NCBI GenBank assembly: GCA_964426965.1
Contig: CAYRSI010000001.1
Location: 1 to 47,797 of the forward strand
Reading direction: 5' to 3'
DNA from: an uncultured Candidatus Saccharibacteria bacterium
Lineage (GTDB): Bacteria; Patescibacteriota; Minisyncoccia; RBG-13-40-8-A; JAUWHN01
DNA length: 47,797 nucleotides
Shown here: positions 104 through 31,579 of the stretch, piece by piece
How positions within the stretch are numbered: the stretch's first letter is position 1
Layout: the number at the start of each line of letters is the position of its first letter
Program-made: the position numbers and the translations under genes
The notes under the pieces: model-generated
What the model saw: the letters and a program-made list of their open reading frames with translations, nothing else
What the model was told of the DNA's origin: nothing
Databases searched by the model: none

Positions 104-176
104 TAGCTTTTTAGCTTTTTAGCTTTTTAGCTTTTTAGGAATTCTAAGAAGCTACAAGCTACAAGCTACAAGCTAG
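104..176. repeat. AGCT-word spacer element, copy a: (AGCTTTTT)x4 - GGAATTCTAAGA - (AGCTACA)x3
   Basis: Tandem 8-mers at 105-136 and 7-mers at 150-170 read directly. The reverse complement shares an identical core of about 49 nt with 7981-8053. Fills the rpsQ|rplN spacer. Confidence 0.9.
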
Positions 177-3161: not shown

Positions 3162-4001
3162 CTACCTTTTTTTCTTTTTCATTCTTTTAATTATAAACTT
3201 ATTTGAATACTTTTTCTTGTTTCTCGTTTTAACTCCGTAGGCTTTTTTGCCCCAAGGAGTCTTTGGTCCCTTGAGTTGACCTACTGGGGATCTTCCTTCT
3301 CCGCCACCATGAGGATGATCAACTGGATTCATTGCTACTCCTCGAACAGCTGGTCTTCTACCCAACCAACGAGAACGGCCAGCTTTACCCAAGTTAATAA
3401 ACCTATGTTCGGACTTACTTAGAGAGCCAATGCTAGCCATAGCATTCTCAGGAATCATCCTAATTTCTGAAGAAGGCAGCGTCAAATGAACATAGCCGCC
3501 CTCAATTGCAGTTACCTGAGCGCTGACACCAGCAGAACGAACAATCTGCCCTCCTTTCCCTGATATAAGTTCAACATTATAAACAAGCGTACCAACTGGC
3601 ATATTTTTTAAAGGCATTCTGTTGGCTGGTTTTAGAGAAACCTTTTCGCCGGTAATAACTTCATCTCCTACTTTTAAATCCCTGGGTGCTAAAATATATC
3701 TTTTTTCTCCATCTTTATAAGTAATCAAAGATATAAAAGCCGACCTATTTGGGTCATACTCAATAGACTCAACTTTTGCAGGAATATCAAATTTATCTCG
3801 TTTAAAATCAATTATCCGATACTTCCTTTTGTGACCGCCTCCTTGATGTCTAACTGTAATTCTCCCCTGCCTGCTTCTTCCTGCTCGTTTCTTCAAGGAT
3901 TTAACAAGTGGTTTATGGGGTTTACTAACAGTTAAATCTTTTTTGTAATCTATCCCGGTCATTTTTCTGCGGCCAGGAGTTGTGGGTTTGTAGATCTTCA
4001 T
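3162..4001 (-). CDS. rplB: 50S ribosomal protein L2
   Basis: 279 aa with the [16 protein letters not shown] motif. Confidence 0.97.
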
Positions 4002-4105
4002 GTTCGCTTCGCGAACGGTTGACCGATCGCCTTTGGCGATCTTGGATGATCATTCGCTTAGCTCATTTGGATGATCAACCGCTTCGCGGTTTTGGTTGAA
4101 GTGGA

Positions 4106-4156
4106 TTATTTTATTAAAAATTTCCTGTATGCTTGAAGCTTGAAAAATAATTTATC
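4106..4156 (-). pseudogene. 3'-terminal remnant of a four-helix-bundle gene (last 16 codons plus stop)
   Basis: Translates to DKLFFKLQAYRKFLIK*, identical to the C-terminus of the 1103-1405 protein. All 8 nucleotide differences between the two are synonymous. Confidence 0.85.
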
Positions 4157-4338
4157 TAAGGTCTACTTTTTTTCTTCTTCCAATCCCTAATCAAAATATC
4201 GTGCTTTCGGCCGCCGAAGATGATTTCTAGTTTTTGACGTTCGCGCCAGCCGAATTTTTCTATTAATCTTTTCGGTAGGTTAATTGAATAGCTGTGGCTA
4301 CTCACTTTTTGTAATTTTCTAACAAATTTTTGTGCCAT
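4156..4338 (-). CDS. AbrB/MazE/SpoVT-type DNA-binding protein, copy 1 (60 aa)
   Basis: MAQKFVRKLQKVSSHSYSINLPKRLIEKFGWRERQKLEIIFGG... has a swapped-hairpin-like pattern (S-x-x-[IV]-x-[LI]-P-K-x-[LI]). Start set at ATG 4336-4338; the longer track ORF reads through the operator repeats. Confidence 0.75.
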   Translation of the reverse strand: MAQKFVRKLQKVSSHSYSINLPKRLIEKFGWRERQKLEIIFGGRKHDILIRDWKKKKSRP

Positions 4339-4345
4339 ATTTATA

Positions 4346-4389
4346 GTATATACGATAGTATATACGTTCGTATATATGTGCGTATATAC
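4346..4389 (-). promoter_or_regulatory. Phased array of palindromic octamers GTATATAC (x3 perfect plus 1 degenerate, 12-bp period), a putative operator/promoter of the AbrB-like gene
   Basis: GTATATAC at 4346, 4358 and 4382, and GTATATAT at 4370. It ends 8 nt before the ATG, and there is no SD. Confidence 0.6.
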
Positions 4390-4472
4390 GATCCATTTCA
4401 ACCATTTCAACCAAGCGAACGAAGTGAGCGATCAACCAAGGTCGCCGCAGGCGACCGATCAACCAATTCGAC

Positions 4473-4925
4473 CTAATGTGGCATAATTTCGATTTTTTGC
4501 CCCTTTTCCAATGTCACTATTGCCTTTTTATAACCAGTTTTAAAGCCTTCAATGCCTCGAAGCATTCTCCTCTTTCTATGAACATTGATTATGTTAACAT
4601 CTCTTACCCTTACTCCGTAAAGATTCTCAACGGCTTTCTTGGTTTCAATTTTATTGGCTTGAGGATAAACTTTAAACACATATTTATTTTCCTCAGTTAA
4701 AACAGTGGCTTTTTCACTAATATGCGGCTCTTTTAAAATCTTATAAATTTCCCGTAAATCTTTTTTCTTTATGGGTGGCCGTTTTACTGATGGCTTTTTC
4801 GCCCTGAGGGCGACCGGCCGTAGGCCGGTAACTTTCTTCGGTTTTTTGGCTGGTTTTTTCTTTAGTTTCTCAACCTTCTTCGGTTTCTTTTTAAATCTTA
4901 ATTTAAATTTTTTAAATAATGACAT
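4473..4925 (-). CDS. rplW: 50S ribosomal protein L23 with a ~55-aa Lys-rich N-terminal extension
   Basis: The C-terminal 95 aa is L23 (ILKEPHISEKATVLTEENKYVFKV...AIVTL). Confidence 0.93.
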   Translation of the reverse strand: MSLFKKFKLRFKKKPKKVEKLKKKPAKKPKKVTGLRPVALRAKKPSVKRPPIKKKDLREIYKILKEPHISEKATVLTEENKYVFKVYPQANKIETKKAVENLYGVRVRDVNIINVHRKRRMLRGIEGFKTGYKKAIVTLEKGQKIEIMPH

Positions 4926-5550
4926 AGGTCTTTTCTATCACTTTTACTGCTTCTTTTGGCATTAATAGGTATTTGAATGATAACAAATCCAAAACGTTTA
5001 AGCTATCTGCTCGAAGAGTCTTTGTGTAGGGAACGTTTTTATTGGCTCTAACAATATTTTCATCTTTTGTTGAAATTACCACTAATGCACTTTTCTTTTT
5101 TTTCCCTAAGATATTCTCCAGTATTCTTGCCATCAGCCTTGTTTTTGGTTCTTGGAGTTCTAATTTATCCAATAATATTAACTCTTTATCTTTGACCTTA
5201 GAAGTTAAAACCATAAATAATGCCTTTTGCTTCATCTTTTTATTAATTTTTTTCTTAAAAACCCGTTCTTTGGTTGGCCCAAAAGTGACGCCACCTCCCC
5301 GCCAAATCGGTGAACGGATAGAACCATGACGCGCTCGACCAGTTCCTTTTTGCCGCCAGGGCTTTCTGCCACCACCACGCACCTCGCTCCTGCCCTTAGC
5401 ATGAGCTATTACCTGCCTCTTATTAGCTAACTGAGCAACCACTGCCTGATGAACCAAATCAGTATTCATCTTCACGTCAAAAATCTTTGACAACAGCTTA
5501 ACTACCCCCACTTTCTTACCTTCTGTATTATAAACATTGACACTCGGCAT
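4912..5550 (-). CDS. rplD: 50S ribosomal protein L4
   Basis: 212 aa with the GGGRKPWRQKGTGRARHGS motif. Confidence 0.96.
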   Translation of the reverse strand: MPSVNVYNTEGKKVGVVKLLSKIFDVKMNTDLVHQAVVAQLANKRQVIAHAKGRSEVRGGGRKPWRQKGTGRARHGSIRSPIWRGGGVTFGPTKERVFKKKINKKMKQKALFMVLTSKVKDKELILLDKLELQEPKTRLMARILENILGKKKKSALVVISTKDENIVRANKNVPYTKTLRADSLNVLDLLSFKYLLMPKEAVKVIEKTYVII

Positions 5551-5554
5551 ATTT

Positions 5555-6205
5555 CTATTGAGATTTAATCTCGACCAAACCTCTATTTGCTCCTGAAACT
5601 GCTCCTTTTACTGCTAATAAATTATTTTCTTTATCTACTTTTACAATTTTTAATCCAGTTGTAGTAACTCGATTAGCGCCTGCATGACCGGGCATTTTTT
5701 TGCCTTTAACCACCCTCTGAGGAAACATGGAACCAATTGAACCAGGCGTACGTAAAACATGACGGTGGCCGTGCGAAGCCGGTCCACCGCTAAATCCATG
5801 TTTTTTAACTACTCCTTGAAATCCCTTTCCCTTAGAAATTCCTGAAATTTTAACAATATCCCCCTCTTTAAATACACTGACATCGATTTTATCGCCTATT
5901 TTTGGAAATTGAGAATTGCCAGCCTTCGGCCCGCTTCGACTCAGCGAGGCGAGCTGGTCAGCCGTAGGCTGAAAAATTGGAAATTCTTTCAGGTATCTGT
6001 ATGGTTTTTTGTTCTGGGACTTCTTGACTTTCTTCTCTTTTAATTTCTCATATCCAATCTGAACAGCCTGGTAATTGTCTTTATCGCTGGTTTTTATCTG
6101 GGTAATAAAACACGGTCCTGCTTCAATAACTGTCACAGGAATAACGTTCCCTTCTTTGTCAAAAATTTGACTCATGCCAAGTTTTCTACCTAATATAAAT
6201 TCCAT
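5555..6205 (-). CDS. rplC: 50S ribosomal protein L3
   Basis: Start set at ATG 6203-6205 (MEFILGRKLGMSQIFDKEGNVIPVTVIE), which matches the usual L3 N-terminus. The track start at 6229 lies in the spacer repeat. Confidence 0.93.
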   Translation of the reverse strand: MEFILGRKLGMSQIFDKEGNVIPVTVIEAGPCFITQIKTSDKDNYQAVQIGYEKLKEKKVKKSQNKKPYRYLKEFPIFQPTADQLASLSRSGPKAGNSQFPKIGDKIDVSVFKEGDIVKISGISKGKGFQGVVKKHGFSGGPASHGHRHVLRTPGSIGSMFPQRVVKGKKMPGHAGANRVTTTGLKIVKVDKENNLLAVKGAVSGANRGLVEIKSQ

Positions 6206-6380
6206 GTAATCAGCGAATAACGAATTCATTACGAATTTACGAATAATAAATACCGGGGTCTAATCCGGTATTGCATAAAAATCGGTTAGCACCCTGTTAT
6301 TTGTTTTATTGAAAATAATTACAAAAATTCATAATTTCGAAAATTCGTATATTCGAAATAGATTCGTTATTCGTTGATGA
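6206..6380. repeat. CGAAT-word spacer element: long imperfect inverted repeat around an ATACCGG hairpin
   Basis: CGAATAACGAAT (6214-6225) against ATTCGTTATTCG (6362-6373), with further CGAAT/ATTCG words on both arms. Central hairpin ATACCGG-N8-CCGGTAT at 6250-6271. Confidence 0.85.
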
Positions 6381-6779
6381 TCACATCTTAATTTCTATAT
6401 CAACACCAGCGGGTAAATTCAAATTCATCATTGCGTCTATAATTCTTGAATTAGGATTGTAAATATCTATTAAACGCTTATGGGTTCTCATTTCGTACTG
6501 CTCCCTGGAATTCTTATGAACAAAACTAGATCTATTCACTGTATACTTGTGAATTTGCGTAGGTAAGGGTATGGGTCCCACAACCTCTGCTCCCTGTCGT
6601 TCAATAGCTTCCACAATCTGCCTGGCTGACTGATCAATAATTTTATGGTCATAAGCCCGTATCTTAATTCTAAGCCGTGATTTTGGCTCCTCAACTTCTT
6701 TTTTTTCGACGCTCGCTTTTGACGAGGTCGAGACCCCGACCCCAGCAGGCGTCGGGGCTTTCTTCCTTTTTGTTTTCAT
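6381..6779 (-). CDS. rpsJ: 30S ribosomal protein S10 with a ~30-aa N-terminal extension
   Basis: [23 protein letters not shown]...THKRLIDI is the S10 core. Confidence 0.95.
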
Positions 6780-6790
6780 TTAAGAATAAC

Positions 6791-7975
6791 TTACTTTACA
6801 ATTTTCGTTACCACGCCCGCTCCGACTGTCTTCCCTCCTTCTCTAATAGCAAATCTTTGCTTCTCTTCAAGAGCGACTGGCGCCATTAACTTAACTTTTA
6901 AATTAACAGTATCACCTGGCATTACCATTTCGGTTCCTTCGGGAAGAGTTGCCTCTCCGGTAACGTCAGTAGTTCGGATATAAAACTGGGGTTTATAGCC
7001 AGTGAAGAAAGGGGTGTGACGACCACCTTCTTCCTTGGTTAAAATATATATCTCCCCCTCGAATTCAGTATGAGGAGTTACGCTTTTGGGCTTGGCTATT
7101 ACCTGCCCTCGTTCAACGTCCTCTTTCTTTGTTCCTCGAAGCAAAATTCCGGCATTATCTCCAGCCCGTCCTTCATCCAACGACTTATTAAACATCTCAA
7201 TGCCAGTAATCACAGTCTTTTGGGTATCGCGCAAACCAATAATTTCTACTTCTTCATTAATCTTTAGAATTCCTCTTTCAATTCTTCCAGTAACCACGGT
7301 TCCTCGCCCTTCAATCGAAAAAATATCCTCAATCGGCATAAGAAATGGTTTGTCAACCTCTCGCTTTGGTTCAGGAATATTTTCGTCAAGAGCTTTAAGC
7401 AATTCATCAATTGATTTCATTTCCTCTTCTGAGCCTTCCATTGCCTTTAGAGAAGAACCCTTAATTACTGGAATTTTATCGCCATCAAACTCATATTTGG
7501 TCAAAAGCTCTCTTATTTCTGTTTCAACTAAATCTATAAGTTCAGGATCATCCACCTGATCGGTTTTGTTAAGATAAACAACGATAGAAGGCACGCCTAC
7601 TTGACGAGCAAGAAGAATATGCTCTCGAGTCTGAGGCATTGGCCCGTCAGCAGCTGAAACTACTAATATTGCTCCGTCCATTTGAGCAGCGCCGGTAATC
7701 ATATTCTTAATATAATCAGCATGACCAGGTGCATCAATGTGAGCATAATGCCTCTTATCTGTTTCATATTCAACATGAGCAAGAGCAATGGTAATACCTC
7801 GCTCTTTTTCTTCTGGGGCGTTATCAATTTCATCTACGCCCTTTTCCGAGGCTCTAAGCCCCTTTGATTTTTGTCTTTTAAGTATAGCTGCAGTCAACGT
7901 GGTTTTACCATGGTCAACATGACCAATGGTTCCCACGTTAAGATGCGGCTTTGTTCTTTCAAATTTTTCCGCCAT
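6791..7975 (-). CDS. tuf: elongation factor Tu
   Basis: 394 aa with [15 protein letters not shown] and NKTD motifs. Confidence 0.98.
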
Positions 7976-7980
7976 ATTTT

Positions 7981-8053
7981 TAGCTTCTTAGCTTGTAGCT
8001 TGTAGCTTCTTAGAATTCCTAAAAAGCTAAAAAGCTAATTCCTAAAAAGCTAG
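7981..8053. repeat. AGCT-word spacer element, copy f (opposite orientation to copy a)
   Basis: TAGCTTGTAGCTTGTAGCTTCTTAGAATTCCTAAAAAGCTAAAAAGCTA equals the reverse complement of part of 104-176. The arms can fold as an imperfect hairpin around GAATTC. Confidence 0.9.
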
Positions 8054-8123: not shown

Positions 8124-10229
8124 TTATTTCTTTTTACCCTCAATCACCTCCTGGGCAACATTTGAAGGCACCTTGGCATAGTAGTCAAATTCCATGGTGA
8201 AAGTTCCCCTTCCCTGCGTCATAGAACGAAGCTGAGTAGCATAACCAAACATTTCAGCCAAAGGAACTTTGGCGTTAATTACTTTCATATTAACACGATC
8301 TTCCATTTTTTCAATCCTCGCTCGTTTGCTATTTAAATCCCCGGTTACCTCACCCATAAATTCTTGAGGCATAACCACTTCAATTCTCATAATGGGTTCC
8401 AATAACACTAAATCAGCTCTTTTAACAGCTTCTTGAAAAGCCATTGAACCGGCAATCTTAAAAGCTGATTCAGAAGAATCTACTTCGTGAAAAGAACCAT
8501 CATATAAAGTTGCCTTAGTATCAACTAGGGGATAACCGGCTAAGATTCCTTTGTCCATAGCTTCTTTAACTCCTTTTTGAACTGCTGGAATAAATTCTTG
8601 GGGAATAATTCCTCCTTTTATCGCATTAACAAATTCGAATCCTTTGCCCTGTTCAAGCGGTTCAACCCTTAACCAAACATGTCCATATTGACCCCGGCCT
8701 CCAGTCTGACGAATATATTTCGCCTCGGCTTCAGCCATTTTCTTGATTGTTTCCTTATAAGCTACTTGGGGGCGGCCGATATTGGCATCTACTTTAAACT
8801 CTCTAAGCATTCTATCCACTAAAATTTCCAAATGCAATTCTCCCATTCCTGAAATTATTGTCTGACCGGTTTCTTCATCAGCTTTTATCTTAAAGGTTGG
8901 ATCTTCTTCTGCTAATCTCTTTAGAGCTAAACTCATTTTTTCCTGATCGGCTTTAGTTTTTGGCTCAATAGAAATAGAAATAACTGGTTCAGGAAAAGTA
9001 ATTTTTTCTAAAACAATAGGATTACTTGGATCGCATAAAGTGTCTCCTGTGGTCGTGCCCTTTAATCCAACTGCTGCGCCAATTTCTCCGGCATATATTT
9101 CTTTTACTTCCTCGCGTTTATCAGCATGCATTCGTAATATTCGTCCTATTCTTTCTTTTTGCCCGCTTATAGAATTTAAAACATAAGAACCAGCAACCAA
9201 TGTTCCAGAATAAACCCGAAAATAGGTTAAACTGCCAACATAAGGATCAGTGGCAACTTTAAATGCCAAGGCAGAAAAAGGAGCATCGTCTTTTGCTTCC
9301 CGGGATAATGCCTTTTCGGTTTTTGGTTCAAGCCCTTGCGCTGAAGGCAAATCTGTAGGAGAAGGCAAATAATATATTATGGCATCAATCAAGAGCTGGA
9401 CTCCTTTATTTTTTAAAGATGAGCCGCAAAAAACCGGGACTAATTTATAGTCAATTACTGCCTTTCGCAAGATCTTCCTAAGCTCGTCTATGCTGATTTC
9501 TTCCCCTGCTAAGTATTTTTCCATCAATTTATCGTCATGTTCAACAATTCTCTCAATTAATTCGCTTCTTCGTTTTTCTGCTTCTTGTTTTAATTCTTCG
9601 GGGATTTCTTTTTCAATCACTTCTTCTCCCTGCTCTCCTTCAAAATAATAGGCCTTTTGAAATAAAAGATCTATCACTCCCTGGTGTTTGCCCTCCAAGC
9701 CAATAGGAATTTGTAACCTAACTGCATTTGGCGTTAATTTTTCTAAAATAGATTGAAAACTTTTTTCAAAATCAGCGCCTATTCTATCCAGTTTATTTAC
9801 AAAGCATATTCTTGGAACTTTAAACTTATCAGCCTGACGCCAAACTGTTTCTGACTGGGATTCTACGCCAGCGACTCCATCAAAAATAACTGCAGCCCCA
9901 TCCAAAACCCTTAAAGATCTTTGGACTTCGGCGGTAAAATCAATATGGCCCGGGGTATCAATAATATTAATTCTGTATTCGTTTTCTTTTTCTTTAGTCA
10001 AATATTCGCCTGGCGCCCAAAAACAAGTAGTAGCAGCAGAAGTAATAGTAATGCCTCTCTCTTTTTCCTGGGCCATCCAGTCCATAATTGCTTTCCCCTC
10101 ATGAACCTCGCCGATTTTATGAGAAATGCCGGTGTAAAAAAGCACCCGTTCAGTAACGGTTGTTTTGCCAGCATCAATGTGAGCAATAAAACCTATGTCC
10201 CTGTTTTTATCTATCGAATATTGCCTCAT
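8124..10229 (-). CDS. fusA: elongation factor G
   Basis: AHIDAGKTT and DTPGH motifs. Start set at ATG 10227-10229 ([10 protein letters not shown]...); the track uses an upstream GTG that overlaps rpsG. Confidence 0.97.
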
Positions 10230-10234
10230 GAACC

Positions 10235-10705
10235 CTACCACGCGAAATGGGCAAAAGCCTTGTTGGCCTCAGCCATTCGGTGAACATTTTGTCTTTTTTT
10301 AATTGCCTCGCCTTCATTTTTAGAGGCATCAATGAATTCCTGGGCAAGTTTTTCTGCCATTGGCTTGCCTTTTTTATTTTTAGCTACTCCAATAATCCAG
10401 CGCATAGCCAAGGCCTCTCTTCTCTCTCCTCTTACTTCATAGGGAACCTGATAATTAGCTCCTCCTACTCGTCGAGATTTAACCTCTAACACAGGAGAAA
10501 CATTATCTATGGCCTTGTTAAAAATTTCTAAAGGTTTCTCGGCTTTGATTTTAGACTTTATAATTTTCAAAGCATTATAAACTACCCGTTGAGCAACGGA
10601 TTTTTGACCCCCCTTCATCACATTATTAATAAACTTTGCTAATCTTACATCATTATATTTGGGGTCTGGGGCAATTTCTCTTTTGATAGCTTGTTTTCTT
10701 CTCAT
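10235..10705 (-). CDS. rpsG: 30S ribosomal protein S7
   Basis: 156 aa; [17 protein letters not shown]... through ...AFAHFAW. Confidence 0.96.
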
Positions 10706-20006: not shown

Positions 20007-20162
20007 TAAATAAAATTCTAGGTATCATCCTCTCACTTTCCTCGCTCGCCCAGCGTGCTCGCTCAGGGATACGCCCTCGCTCTCTCCCCCGCAGCGGCGG
20101 GGTCGAACCATGCCCGCTCGGGCTCCTAACCCGTTCAAGGACAATGCCCAGAATTTTATTTA
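20007..20162. mobile_element. MITE-like element: 16-bp terminal inverted repeats around a 124-bp GC-rich core
   Basis: TAAATAAAATTCTAGG (20007-20022) against CCCAGAATTTTATTTA (20147-20162) matches 15/16. The core is strikingly GC-rich, with CTCGCTC x3 and hairpins CCCCGC-AGC-GGCGGGG and GCCCG-CTC-GGGC. No ORF. Confidence 0.5.
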
Positions 20163-27150: not shown

Positions 27151-27471
27151 CTAATGCCAGCCGCCGAGCAAATGTAAATGCAAATGATCGACTATCTGGC
27201 CGCCTCTTCGACCAACATTAAAATTTAATTTATAGCCATGGGAAATTTTTTGCTGCTTTGCTATTTTTTTGGCTAATAAGAATAAATCGCCTATGAGGTC
27301 TTTGTGTTTTTCTTTTAAATCATTAAATGAACTAATATGAACCTTGGGAACTAATAAAAGATGAATCGGGGCTACTGGGTTAATATCCTTAAATGCTATA
27401 AAATTAGCGTCTTCATAAACAATATCAGACGATATTTCTTTATTAATGATGTTGCAAAATATACAATCCAT
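27151..27471 (-). CDS. HIT-family (histidine triad) protein
   Basis: HLHLHLLGG motif; 106 aa. Confidence 0.92.
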   Translation of the reverse strand: MDCIFCNIINKEISSDIVYEDANFIAFKDINPVAPIHLLLVPKVHISSFNDLKEKHKDLIGDLFLLAKKIAKQQKISHGYKLNFNVGRRGGQIVDHLHLHLLGGWH

Positions 27472-27566
27472 ATTAGCTCGCTTCGCGAGCGGTTGACCAG
27501 TCGCCTACGGCAACTTTGGATGATCGGTCCGACGGCCATCGGACCTTGGATGATGGATGAAATGGA

Positions 27567-27644: not shown

Positions 27645-27821
27645 TTATTTCTTTTTCTTCTTCCAATCCTTAATCAAAATATCATGCTTTCGGCCGCCGA
27701 AGAGAATTTCTAGTTTTTGACGTTCGCGCCAGCCGAATTTTTCTATTAATCTTTTCGGTAGGTTAATTGAATAGCTGTGGCTACTCACTTTTTGTAATTT
27801 TCTAACAAATTTTTGTGCCAT
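27645..27821 (-). CDS. AbrB/MazE/SpoVT-type DNA-binding protein, copy 2 (58 aa)
   Basis: Only a handful of nucleotide differences from the 4156-4338 copy over ~170 nt, by eye. Start at ATG 27819-27821. Confidence 0.75.
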   Translation of the reverse strand: MAQKFVRKLQKVSSHSYSINLPKRLIEKFGWRERQKLEILFGGRKHDILIKDWKKKKK

Positions 27822-27828
27822 ATTTATA

Positions 27829-27860
27829 GTATATACGATAGTATATACGTTCGTATATAC
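27829..27860 (-). promoter_or_regulatory. Phased GTATATAC array (x3, 12-bp period)
   Basis: GTATATAC at 27829, 27841 and 27853. One 12-bp unit fewer than copy 1. Confidence 0.6.
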
Positions 27861-27919
27861 GAACCATCTCAACCAAACGAACGAAGTGAGTGATCAACCA
27901 AGCGAAGCGATCAACCAAT

Positions 27920-31009: not shown

Positions 31010-31579
31010 ATGATTTTAATTGTTGGTCTTGGAAATCCTGGGAAAAAATACAAAAAAACCCGACACAACGTTGGGTTTCAAGTTATTGATGAACTAATTA
31101 ATAGTGAACAATTAACGGTTAATAAGAAGCAGGAAAAATTTAACGCTGCAATATGGGAAGGAACATTTGATAATCAAAAAATAATCCTGGCTAAACCATT
31201 AACTTTCATGAACGAATCGGGTAAATCCGTGAAAAAATTAATTGGAAATTGGAAATTGGAAATTGGAAATTTAATCGTCATGCATGACGATATAGATCTG
31301 CCCCTGGAAACTATCCGGGTTAGTAAAAACATAACATCAGCAGGTCACAAGGGAATTCAATCAATTATTGATGAAATGGGAAGTAAAAATTTTGTGCGAA
31401 TTCGCATTGGAATTAAGCCAACTCTTGAGCAAGGCCACGATACTGAAAATTTTGTTCTAACAAAATTTTCTAAAGAAGAAAAAAAACTGATTCAAAAAGC
31501 AATCAAACTAGTCATTAAAATCATCGAGAAAGGCCTGAAACAAGGCCTCAAAAAAACAACAGTGAAAATATTTCAATAA
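31010..31579 (+). CDS. pth: peptidyl-tRNA hydrolase
   Basis: Start set at ATG 31010 (MILIVGLGNPGKKYKKTRHNVGF). The track ORF starts upstream inside the LCP gene. Confidence 0.92.
   Translation: MILIVGLGNPGKKYKKTRHNVGFQVIDELINSEQLTVNKKQEKFNAAIWEGTFDNQKIILAKPLTFMNESGKSVKKLIGNWKLEIGNLIVMHDDIDLPLETIRVSKNITSAGHKGIQSIIDEMGSKNFVRIRIGIKPTLEQGHDTENFVLTKFSKEEKKLIQKAIKLVIKIIEKGLKQGLKKTTVKIFQ

What the first reader, a model, noticed from the sequence alone, without database searches (positions are those of the whole stretch)
5902..5985. In-frame 75-bp GC-rich hairpin insertion with 9-bp direct repeats inside rplC
- Within the L3 gene, a 54-nt strongly GC-rich stretch (5918-5971) interrupts otherwise AT-rich coding sequence.
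- It contains the same kind of mini-hairpins as the intergenic elements: GCC-TTC-GGC at 5922-5930 and CAGCC-GTA-GGCTG at 5959-5971.
- It is bracketed by a perfect 9-bp direct repeat TTGGAAATT (5902-5910 and 5977-5985) exactly 75 bp apart (25 codons). That looks like a target-site duplication.
- The encoded segment (IFQPTADQLASLSRSGPKAGNSQFP) falls in the variable loop between the EF motif and the G-x-x-[IV]-x-V-x-x-F strand of L3.
- The same TTGGAAATT word is what is tandemly amplified in pth (31241-31271).
- Inference: a palindromic element inserted into an essential gene and is tolerated in frame, analogous to Rickettsia palindromic elements.
Basis: partly seen in the sequence, partly recalled or inferred. 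Interest (0 to 1): 0.72.

Follow-up and report, generated by a model that had tools for sequence, protein, structure and literature searches.

The report
Nested palindromic repeats inside ribosomal gene rplC
A 54-base GC-rich insert in the ribosomal protein L3 gene of an uncultured CPR bacterium is made of two selfish hairpin repeats, one nested in the other, and the inner 24-base repeat turns up unchanged inside many other essential genes across distant bacterial groups.

Summary
The sequence features are real, but the unit was mis-measured. rplC lies on the minus strand (5555-6229). Relatives without the insert read GAA TTT TCA ATT TTC|AAT TCT CAA TTT TCA. They already carry the 9-bp "direct repeat" 21 nt apart, so it is host sequence, not a target-site duplication.

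The true insert is 54 nt (5918-5971, 18 codons, GC 0.70 against 0.37). It has two parts:
- **Double hairpin:** a 30-nt element (CAGCC-TAC-GGCTG AC CAGCC-GAA-GGCTG GC). Copies also occur in rplB, twice in rsmH, and in an intergenic site of related genomes.
- **Nested module:** a 24-nt sequence, CTCGCCTCGCTGAGTCGAAGCGGG (5930-5953). Its 20-nt core has at least 115 exact copies, in many CPR classes and in Nitrospira.

Many copies sit in frame inside real genes (dnaE, ligA, alaS, PBP2, murT). The nearest L3 relative carries the same module in the opposite orientation. Frame use is biased, no copy uses the one stop-containing frame, and the length is a multiple of three. All this points to translation.

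Best reading: tolerated selfish palindromic DNA in a hypervariable loop, like RPEs, intragenic REPs and yeast GC clusters. What moves it is unknown.

The parts
5555..6229 (-). rplC (ribosomal protein uL3), 224 aa, host gene
   Evidence: ORF list. PF00297 and the S10-operon context. Strong matches to solved uL3 chains.
5918..5971 (-). 54-nt composite insert, 18 codons, Q87-G104 (QPTADQLASLSRSGPKAG)
   Evidence: Absent from uninserted relatives at exactly the TTT^AAT junction. GC 0.704 against 0.366. pLDDT about 51-54.
5959..5971 (-). Double-hairpin element, hairpin 1: CAGCC-TAC-GGCTG
   Evidence: Perfect hairpin. Conserved, with a compensatory change, in other copies.
5954..5958 (-). Double-hairpin element: spacer A plus the 5' arm CCAG of hairpin 2, up to the nesting point
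   Evidence: Comparison with the intact copies L086 15969-15998 and L085 930-959.
5930..5953 (-). 24-nt nested module C: CTCGCCTCGCTGAGTCGAAGCGGG (sense strand), encoding LASLSRSG
   Evidence: The empty site is CCAGCCGAAGG in L086 and L085. There are at least 115 exact copies of its 20-mer core in GTDB genomes. The 24-nt boundaries are sharp. The closest L3 relative, L090, carries it in the opposite orientation.
5918..5929 (-). Double-hairpin element: remainder of hairpin 2 (CCGAAGGCTGGC)
5977..5985 (-). Host 9-mer AATTTCCAA (codons E-F-P-I); pre-existing, not a duplication made by insertion
   Evidence: The homologous AATTTTCAA is present in uninserted L092 and L083.
5902..5910 (-). Host 9-mer AATTTCCAA (codons Q-F-P-K); pre-existing
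4799..4829 (-). Same phenomenon in rplW (L23): two adjacent perfect GC-rich hairpins in frame (TGLRPVALRA). They share the GCC-TAC-GGC core.
   Evidence: Hairpin scan. Absent from L23 of five relatives. 9-mer census.
6701..6775 (-). Same phenomenon in rpsJ (S10): a GC-rich in-frame N-terminal insert. It is shorter in L083 and L085 and absent in L092 and L086.

Best explanation
The GC-rich block in rplC is selfish palindromic DNA that the host tolerates, assembled in two steps.

**Step 1.** A 30-nt double-hairpin element landed between the codons TTT and AAT, in a loop of uL3 whose length varies widely among relatives. The element is two copies of the stem CAGCC/GGCTG with loops TAC and GAA. 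It can also fold as a single 28-nt palindrome.

**Step 2.** A 24-nt imperfect hairpin (module C) inserted into hairpin 2 at CCAG^CC. It made no target duplication. Alternatively, the composite arrived already assembled.

Both lengths are multiples of three. Module C is open in 5 of 6 reading frames. The gene therefore stays intact, and the insert is translated as an 18-residue loop rich in Gly, Ser, Pro and Ala, probably disordered, between two beta-strands of the globular domain. That is far from the long loop that reaches the peptidyl-transferase centre.

**Shown here:** the anatomy, the empty sites, other copies in coding and non-coding DNA, both orientations, and recurrent hits in the same loop.

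**Inferred:**
- Translation of the insert, and a neutral or slightly harmful effect on the host.
- Solvent exposure of the loop.
- The way the elements move. My best guess, at about 35%, is mobilisation in trans on single-stranded DNA by a hairpin-recognising HUH/Y1-type transposase, of the IS200/IS605 or RAYT kind. The reasons are the sharply defined ends, the absence of target duplication, the bulged imperfect hairpin and the tendency to nest in other palindromes. Templated repair or gene conversion between copies is the main alternative.
For: **The insert and its empty site**
- Uninserted relatives define the empty site and show the 9-mers pre-exist.
- The base loop is 7-12 aa in 29 other L3 loci. 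Only this clade reaches 16-40 aa, with loop GC 0.42-0.67 against 0.35-0.39 in the flanks.
- The ancestral SIFNSQFSKK loop is widespread. Different inserts are scattered across the clade. P0021 and P0029 differ by a clean 21 nt at the same bond.

**The double hairpin**
- Copies lie at non-homologous sites: rplX-rplE intergenic (30/30 identical), rsmH twice, and rplB.
- 98% of pair positions are paired, 3 of 11 pairs show two-sided changes, and only 2 of 500 shuffles do as well.

**Module C**
- At least 115 exact copies of the 20-mer, against about 1-3 expected by chance.
- Sharp 24-nt boundaries.
- Present in the opposite orientation in the sister L3.
- Sits in frame inside DnaE, LigA, AlaRS, PBP2, MurT and others.
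- In AlaRS it is a private insertion of exactly 8 aa, absent from 41 relatives.

**Evidence for translation**
- Frame bias: PASTQRG in 14 of 24 deep-coding copies (p = 4e-5).
- No copy in the stop-containing frame and no disrupted gene among 76 low-GC copies.
- Low model confidence over the insert.

**Not an assembly error**
- Identical sequence in three independent assemblies.
Against: - No transposase or other recurring gene lies next to 115 copies. Only 47.8 kb of this genome is visible.
- Module C's own hairpin is not unusually stable (z -0.8 to -1.5).
- Nesting of C inside flanking hairpins is only a partial trend. Flanks form a stem of 6 bp or more in 14% of copies, against 2.4% in controls.
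- Base-for-base identity across phyla, with no copy in IMG/VR or PLSDB, is hard to explain by simple vertical descent of junk DNA.
- Translation and surface exposure are not directly shown.
- The protein sets are biased towards intact ORFs.
Confidence: 0.75

Rival explanations
1. One reading: a single palindromic transposon of about 66-75 bp inserted and duplicated a 9-bp target, TTGGAAATT.
For: A perfect 9-bp direct repeat brackets the block, 75 bp apart.
Against: Uninserted relatives already have both 9-mers 21 nt apart, as the codons EFS and QFS. The insert is 54 nt, and P0006 has a 30-nt version at the same junction. Empty and filled pairs for both modules show no duplication.
Confidence: 0.03
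2. Local origin: the loop grew by slippage, template switching or quasi-palindrome correction, plus GC-biased change, with no mobile element involved.
For: The loop varies greatly in length. Hairpins can arise through template switching. Inserts in relatives look like stepwise growth.
Against: The 24-nt module is identical in at least 115 unrelated places. It is inverted in the sister L3. The 30-nt element is 30/30 identical at an intergenic site of a genome whose rplC is only 77% identical.
Confidence: 0.04
3. Acquired function: either the inserted peptide gives uL3 a new surface contact, or the mRNA hairpin regulates translation or processing of the S10 operon.
For: The insert is identical in three assemblies from different samples. 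The mRNA fold is stable at -26.6 kcal/mol. CPR ribosomal proteins are known to differ in size from those of other bacteria (PMC9297842).
Against: Distribution among close relatives is patchy, and different inserts occupy the same loop. The same modules sit in unrelated proteins and in intergenic DNA. Model confidence over the insert is low.
Confidence: 0.08
4. The insert is not translated. Ribosomes hop from the first TTT CCA to the second, as in T4 gene 60 or the mitochondrial byp elements. Alternatively, the insert is cut out of the mRNA.
For: Matching codons flank a structured GC-rich block. GC clusters are bypassed in Magnusiomyces mitochondria (PMC8811140).
Against: - The insert is open and a multiple of three, as are all inserts seen.
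- The matching codons pre-exist in empty sites.
- Module C shows strong reading-frame bias.
- C never occupies its stop-containing frame inside genes. That is 0 of about 27 copies where about 4-5 would be expected.
Confidence: 0.02
5. Sequencing or assembly artefact.
For: Short palindromes can be created by chimeric reads.
Against: The sequence is identical in a JGI contig, a second JGI sample and the window. The module occurs in frame in MAGs from dozens of independent projects.
Confidence: 0.01

Closest known systems
Rickettsia palindromic elements (RPE; Ogata et al. 2000, 2002, cited in PMC3733652)
   Same: Palindromic repeats inserted in frame into protein-coding genes, including essential ones. 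They also occur in non-coding DNA, are translated as extra surface segments, and are regarded as selfish DNA.
   Different: From my own knowledge, RPE-1 is about 100-150 bp and confined to Rickettsia. Here the modules are 24 and 30 nt and nested. Module C is shared base for base across CPR classes and Nitrospira. Sequence homology to RPEs was not tested.
REP/BIME elements, including intragenic REPs (Di Nocera et al. 2013, PMC3733652)
   Same: GC-rich imperfect palindromes of 20-40 bp, often in dimers. Some lie inside ORFs, where dimers encode 20-30 aa, notably in replication and repair genes. They may be mobilised by Y1 transposases (RAYTs).
   Different: There is no unpaired GTAG or CGTC tag; the tail here is CTC(G). 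No RAYT was seen. The two hairpins are in tandem rather than head-to-head. About one third or more of the CPR copies of module C lie deep inside genes. The module is identical across phyla.
GC clusters of yeast mitochondrial DNA (var1 in-frame insertions; PMC8811140)
   Same: GC-rich palindromic clusters in a very AT-rich genome. They insert in frame into a ribosomal protein gene (var1/uS3m), making it 'expandable'. Clusters merge and nest to form composites, and are mostly intergenic.
   Different: They are organellar. Terminal AG/TAG repeats are read as target duplications, and none is seen here. There is no sequence relationship.
Double-hairpin elements of chytrid and Allomyces mitochondria (Paquin et al. 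2000; from my own knowledge)
   Same: Two adjacent short hairpins act as a unit and are found in coding and non-coding DNA. Comparison of relatives gives evidence of mobility.
   Different: They are mitochondrial and unrelated in sequence. I could not check details in the held library.
Palindrome-associated transposable elements (PATEs) and IS200/IS605 (from my own knowledge)
   Same: No terminal inverted repeats and no target duplication. Subterminal imperfect hairpins define the ends.
   Different: PATEs are more than 100 bp and carry recognisable IS ends. Here the units are 24-30 nt and no transposase partner has been identified.

Membership tests
Rickettsia palindromic elements (RPE) | Palindromic repeat inserted in frame inside a CDS without disrupting it | tested here: met
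Rickettsia palindromic elements (RPE) | Belongs to a dispersed family with copies in other genes and in non-coding DNA | tested here: met
Rickettsia palindromic elements (RPE) | Sequence homology to RPE consensus sequences, or Rickettsia as host | not tested
   No RPE consensus was at hand. The host is a CPR bacterium. L3 is 62% identical to a Portnoybacteria protein, and the composite recurs in a Portnoybacteria MAG. Unit lengths of 24-30 nt differ from the roughly 100-150 bp of RPE-1 (my own knowledge).
REP/BIME | GC-rich imperfect palindrome of 20-40 bp | tested here: met
REP/BIME | Unpaired GTAG or CGTC tag at one end (PMC3733652) | tested here: not met
   The conserved tail of module C is CTC(G). 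In the double hairpin, GTAG lies in the loop and stem of the plus strand, not in an unpaired tail.
REP/BIME | Many copies per genome | tested here: inconclusive
   The 47.8-kb window holds one C copy and one double hairpin. One CPR MAG has at least 7 C copies and one Nitrospira MAG at least 14.
REP/BIME | Association with a RAYT (Y1 transposase) | not testable with these tools
   The whole genome is not available. No gene recurs within the 8-kb (or shorter) stretches held around 115 copies.
MITE | Terminal inverted repeats plus a target-site duplication | tested here: not met
   Empty and filled sites show no duplication.
Yeast mitochondrial GC clusters | GC-rich palindromic cluster in an AT-rich genome, able to sit in frame in a ribosomal protein gene and to form composites | tested here: met
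   This is a resemblance in behaviour only.
Yeast mitochondrial GC clusters | Terminal AG/TAG repeats, and a mitochondrial host | tested here: not met
   One search shows no terminal repeats. The host is a bacterial chromosome.
Translational bypass elements (T4 gene 60, byps) | The insert interrupts the frame or carries a stop, so it must be skipped | tested here: not met
   The insert is open and a multiple of three. Module C avoids its stop-containing frame inside genes.

The most novel reading that the evidence does not exclude
Module C (CTCGCCTCGCTGAGTCGAAGCGGG) would be a new class of ultra-small mobile DNA. It is 24 nt long, keeps the reading frame, and is open in 5 of 6 frames. It would spread within and between distant phyla (many CPR classes and Nitrospira) by a trans-acting machinery not yet identified. 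It would be adapted to live inside the coding sequences of essential genes in streamlined genomes that have little intergenic space.
Probability: 0.3. Interest if true: 0.85.

Novelty: new variant of a known kind. Interest (0 to 1): 0.68.

Why it matters
- **Room for selfish DNA in tiny genomes.** CPR genomes are only about 1 Mb and have little spare space. Even so, selfish palindromic DNA persists by sitting in frame in the surface loops of ribosomal proteins (uL3, uL23, uS10) and of replication, cell-wall and tRNA-charging enzymes.
- **A practical warning.** Ribosomal proteins are the standard markers for CPR phylogeny and binning. Repeat-derived, recurrently gained inserts in them can mislead alignments.
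- **A tractable question.** A 24-nt sequence identical across phyla, with sharp ends and no target duplication, asks what enzyme moves it and how it crosses lineages. Phylogenetic profiling could address this.
- **A mechanism for size differences.** It also offers a way to explain some of the size differences reported for CPR ribosomal proteins.

Tried and rejected
- **Metagenome scan with L3**: returned only relatives of 59% identity or less, which was no use for defining the empty site. Exact-protein contig look-ups worked instead.
- **Rfam:** no family covers the insert or the module.
- **Literature:** no paper holds the module sequence or its peptides. I found no report of palindromic inserts in CPR genes.
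- **Viral contigs and plasmids:** no copies of module C, so no carrier was identified.
- **Recurrent neighbouring gene around 115 copies:** none.
- **"C always sits in a hairpin loop":** only a partial enrichment, so I dropped it as a rule.
- **Genes broken by C:** three candidates turned out to be adjacent separate genes.
- **Strain polymorphism via L208:** the contig is 100% identical to the window and gave no information.
- **Naming the organism through cluster members:** no names were returned.
- **A tRNA-like, ribozyme-like or adaptor origin for module C:** considered from memory and rejected, because nothing matched.

Full report
**Context.** The window is AT-rich (36.5% GC). It carries the str/S10 ribosomal operon on the minus strand, in transcription order: fusA 8124-10241, tuf 6791-7975, rpsJ 6381-6779, rplC 5555-6229, rplD 4912-5550, rplW 4473-4925, a small AbrB-like ORF, and rplB 3162-4001. 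L3 relatives are uncultured CPR bacteria. The only named one is a Portnoybacteria protein at 62% identity. The exact L3 protein occurs on two JGI contigs from different samples. Their DNA is identical over the insert.

**Checking the observation.**
- The 9-mer TTGGAAATT is at 5902-5910 and 5977-5985.
- 5918-5971 has GC 0.704, against 0.366 for the rest of rplC.
- The hairpin at 5958-5972 is perfect.
- Folding of the 84-nt and 54-nt stretches is moderately better than shuffles, with z from -2.1 to -3.0.

So the features exist at the stated coordinates.

**What the relatives show.** I aligned 39 L3 proteins of 63-87% identity. The loop between YRYL(K/R)EF and KIGDKI varies greatly in length. I then fetched the DNA of eight close relatives and read the loop codon by codon.
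- Uninserted genes (P0023, P0005) read GAA TTT TCA ATT TTC | AAT TCT/GAT CAA TTT TCA AAA. The loop is 30 nt with GC 0.17.
- They already contain AATTTTCAA twice, 21 nt apart, as the codons EFS-I and QFS-K.
- The window equals this sequence plus 54 nt inserted between TTT and AAT. 21 + 54 = 75.
- The "direct repeat" is therefore host sequence, not a target-site duplication. The insert is 18 codons (QPTADQLASLSRSGPKAG).

A survey of 35 L3 loci supports this. The base loop is 7-12 aa in the 29 loci outside this set of inserted close relatives. Only those relatives reach 16-40 aa, with loop GC of 0.42-0.67 against 0.35-0.39 in the flanks.

**Anatomy.** On the sense strand the insert reads CAGCCTACGGCTG A CCAG [CTCGCCTCGCTGAGTCGAAGCGGG] CCGAAGGCTGGC.
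- P0006 has, at the same junction, CAGCCTACGGTTGACCAGCCGGAGGCTGGC. That is the window's insert minus the bracketed 24 nt.
- The 30-nt unit is a double hairpin: CAGCC-TAC-GGCTG, AC, CAGCC-GAA-GGCTG, GC. It can also fold as one 28-nt palindrome. Its fold has z = -4.65 as RNA and -5.0 as DNA, and 0 of 200 shuffles fold as well.

Other copies of the double hairpin lie at non-homologous sites:
- L086 15969-15998, between rplX and rplE, 30/30 identical to the window's unit. rplC of that genome is only 77% identical to the window's, and 61% at third codon positions.
- L197, twice in rsmH of a Portnoybacteria MAG.
- L090, in rplB.

Across six copies, 98% of pair positions are paired and 3 of 11 pairs show two-sided changes. 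Only 2 of 500 shuffles reach that score. The second rsmH copy carries the 24-nt module at the same internal position, and that composite matches the window's at 49 of 54 nt. Either the composite moved as a unit or the module targets that spot.

**The 24-nt module C.**
- The nearest L3 relative is P0003, sister to the window in an NJ tree. It has GGGCCCGCTTCGACTCAGCGAGGCGAGC on its sense strand. That is the exact reverse complement of the window's 26 nt, in different flanks. The same module is therefore present in the opposite orientation in the same loop.
About 1-3 are expected by chance.
- Hosts include many CPR classes: Levyi-, Curtiss-, Gottesman-, Davies-, Blackburn-, Moran-, Kuenen-, Taga-, Wolfe-, Portnoy-bacteria, Paceibacterota and Saccharibacteria. 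Nitrospira is also a host, with at least 14 copies in one MAG. A few other MAGs also carry it, but their labels may be unreliable.
- In the 76 copies from low-GC loci, conservation is sharply bounded to 24 nt: CTCG plus the 20-mer, with each of the four flanking bases at 96% or more. Outside it there is a weaker G at -5 and C/T at +1, and no information beyond that.
- In Nitrospira the module sits inside a longer lineage-specific inverted repeat.
- Of the low-GC copies, 24 lie at least 20 aa deep inside open frames of 300 aa or more.
- Pfam confirms the hosts are real genes: DnaE, LigA, an ADP-forming acetyl-CoA synthetase-like enzyme, two PBP2s, AlaRS, MurT, a NuoL-like protein and a glucose/sorbosone dehydrogenase.
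- In AlaRS the module is exactly an 8-residue private insertion (PASTQRGE), absent from the 41 nearest homologues.

**Is it translated?**
- Five of the module's six frames are open; the sixth has a TGA.
- Among deep-coding copies the frame PASTQRG is used in 14 of 24, against 20% expected (p = 4e-5).
- No copy uses the stop-containing frame inside a gene.
- Deleting the module never restores a broken gene. The three candidates were adjacent separate genes.
- All inserts seen in L3 are multiples of three.

These points argue for translation and for selection on the peptide. They argue against bypass or removal at the RNA level. There is one caveat: the protein databases favour intact ORFs.

An AlphaFold model gives pLDDT of about 51-54 over residues 87-104. 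The insert lies between the strand at 77-84 and the next strand. It is well away from the long loop (136-182) that corresponds to the extension reaching the peptidyl-transferase centre. Exposure on the ribosome is inferred from the length variability and could not be tested here.

**Recurrence.**
- The ancestral SIFNSQFSKK loop is widespread in the clade, and different inserts are scattered over the tree.
- P0021 and P0029 differ by a clean 21-nt GC-rich hairpin at the same TTT^AAT bond.
- P0002 equals P0003 plus a further 48 nt nested in the hairpin loop.
- In the window, rplW carries two adjacent perfect hairpins in frame (4799-4829) that share the GCC-TAC-GGC core. rpsJ carries a GC-rich N-terminal insert. 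Both are missing or shorter in relatives.

The phenomenon is therefore general in this lineage.

**Mechanism.**
- *Shown:* defined ends, no target duplication, both orientations, nesting, and copies in coding and non-coding DNA.
- *Not found:* any recurrent neighbouring gene, any copy in IMG/VR or PLSDB, any Rfam family, or any paper containing the sequence or its peptides.

I favour mobilisation in trans by a hairpin-recognising single-strand (HUH/Y1-type) transposase. This is an inference from the anatomy, at roughly 35%. Templated repair or gene conversion between copies is the main alternative. Identity across phyla without a visible carrier remains unexplained.

**Comparison with known systems.** In behaviour this matches three known cases:
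- Rickettsia palindromic elements.
- Intragenic REPs. PMC3733652 reports REP dimers encoding 20-30 aa inside replication and repair genes.
- Yeast mitochondrial GC clusters, which insert in frame into the ribosomal protein gene var1 and merge into composites (PMC8811140).

It fails the REP tag test (no GTAG or CGTC) and the MITE test (no inverted terminal repeats or target duplication), and it is much smaller than RPE-1. A study of CPR ribosomal proteins notes size differences, including a larger uS10, but not their cause (PMC9297842).

**Verdict.** This is a real feature. It is a new variant of a known kind. The open and interesting part is the 24-nt module shared across phyla.

Noticed in passing
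window 4156-4410 and 27652-27859; arrays at 1007-1096, 1482-1552, 3995-4103, 4400-4473, 27469-27560, 27862-27900: A small AbrB/SpoVT-like ORF is duplicated (98% over 208 nt). One copy is inserted between rplW and rplB. Both copies are flanked by arrays of GC-rich 6-7-bp hairpins with three-base loops, separated by the words TCAACCA / TGGATGATC.
   Followed up: partly
window 4367-4454: This 88-nt piece of the hairpin array is absent from contig L001, which is otherwise 100% identical. It is an indel polymorphism in the repeat array.
   Followed up: partly
L002 2932-3927 against window 27859-26863: Contig L002 joins rplW and the AbrB-like ORF to the region around window position 27 kb, instead of to rplB. 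This is either a recombination or an assembly switch through the duplicated ORF.
   Followed up: no
window 119-168, 7989-8038, 2781-2849: A 50-nt perfect inverted repeat lies 7.8 kb apart, built from 6-7-nt tandem words (TTAGCTT / AGCTACA). A third copy is 80% complementary.
   Followed up: no
It reads in frame as IGNWKLEIGN. It contains the 9-mer TTGGAAATT four times simply because of its period.
   Followed up: partly
window 20024-20153: The most GC-rich island of the window (up to 0.78) lies in a gap between convergent ORFs. It contains the hairpin CCCCGC-AGCG-GCGGGG and has no Rfam match.
   Followed up: no
window 6209-6378: The rpsJ-rplC spacer holds a 36-nt inverted repeat, 86% complementary, made of CGAATAA/TTACGAA-type words (I4).
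   Followed up: no
L090 855-1112; L001 14737-15039 and 17672-18070; L083 10141-10536; L086 12822-13181: Small free-standing ORFs (GIY-YIG, the 23S rRNA intervening-sequence protein PF05635, and PDDEXK_3) are wedged between ribosomal protein genes in this clade, at varying positions.
   Followed up: no
window 5977-5985 and 5902-5910: Both host 9-mers read TTT CCA (Phe-Pro) in the window, whereas relatives read TTT TCA/TCG (Phe-Ser) at both places. The same T-to-C change in two copies may be coincidence or conversion.
   Followed up: no
P0124, P0130, P0140, P0162 (AlaRS relatives): Other private insertions of 8-21 aa (PKDPQGIG, LSSPDEIGRTG, NRAFGGIDPENLPSGTILKGN) occur at other AlaRS sites in CPR relatives. 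They may be further repeat-derived inserts.
   Followed up: no
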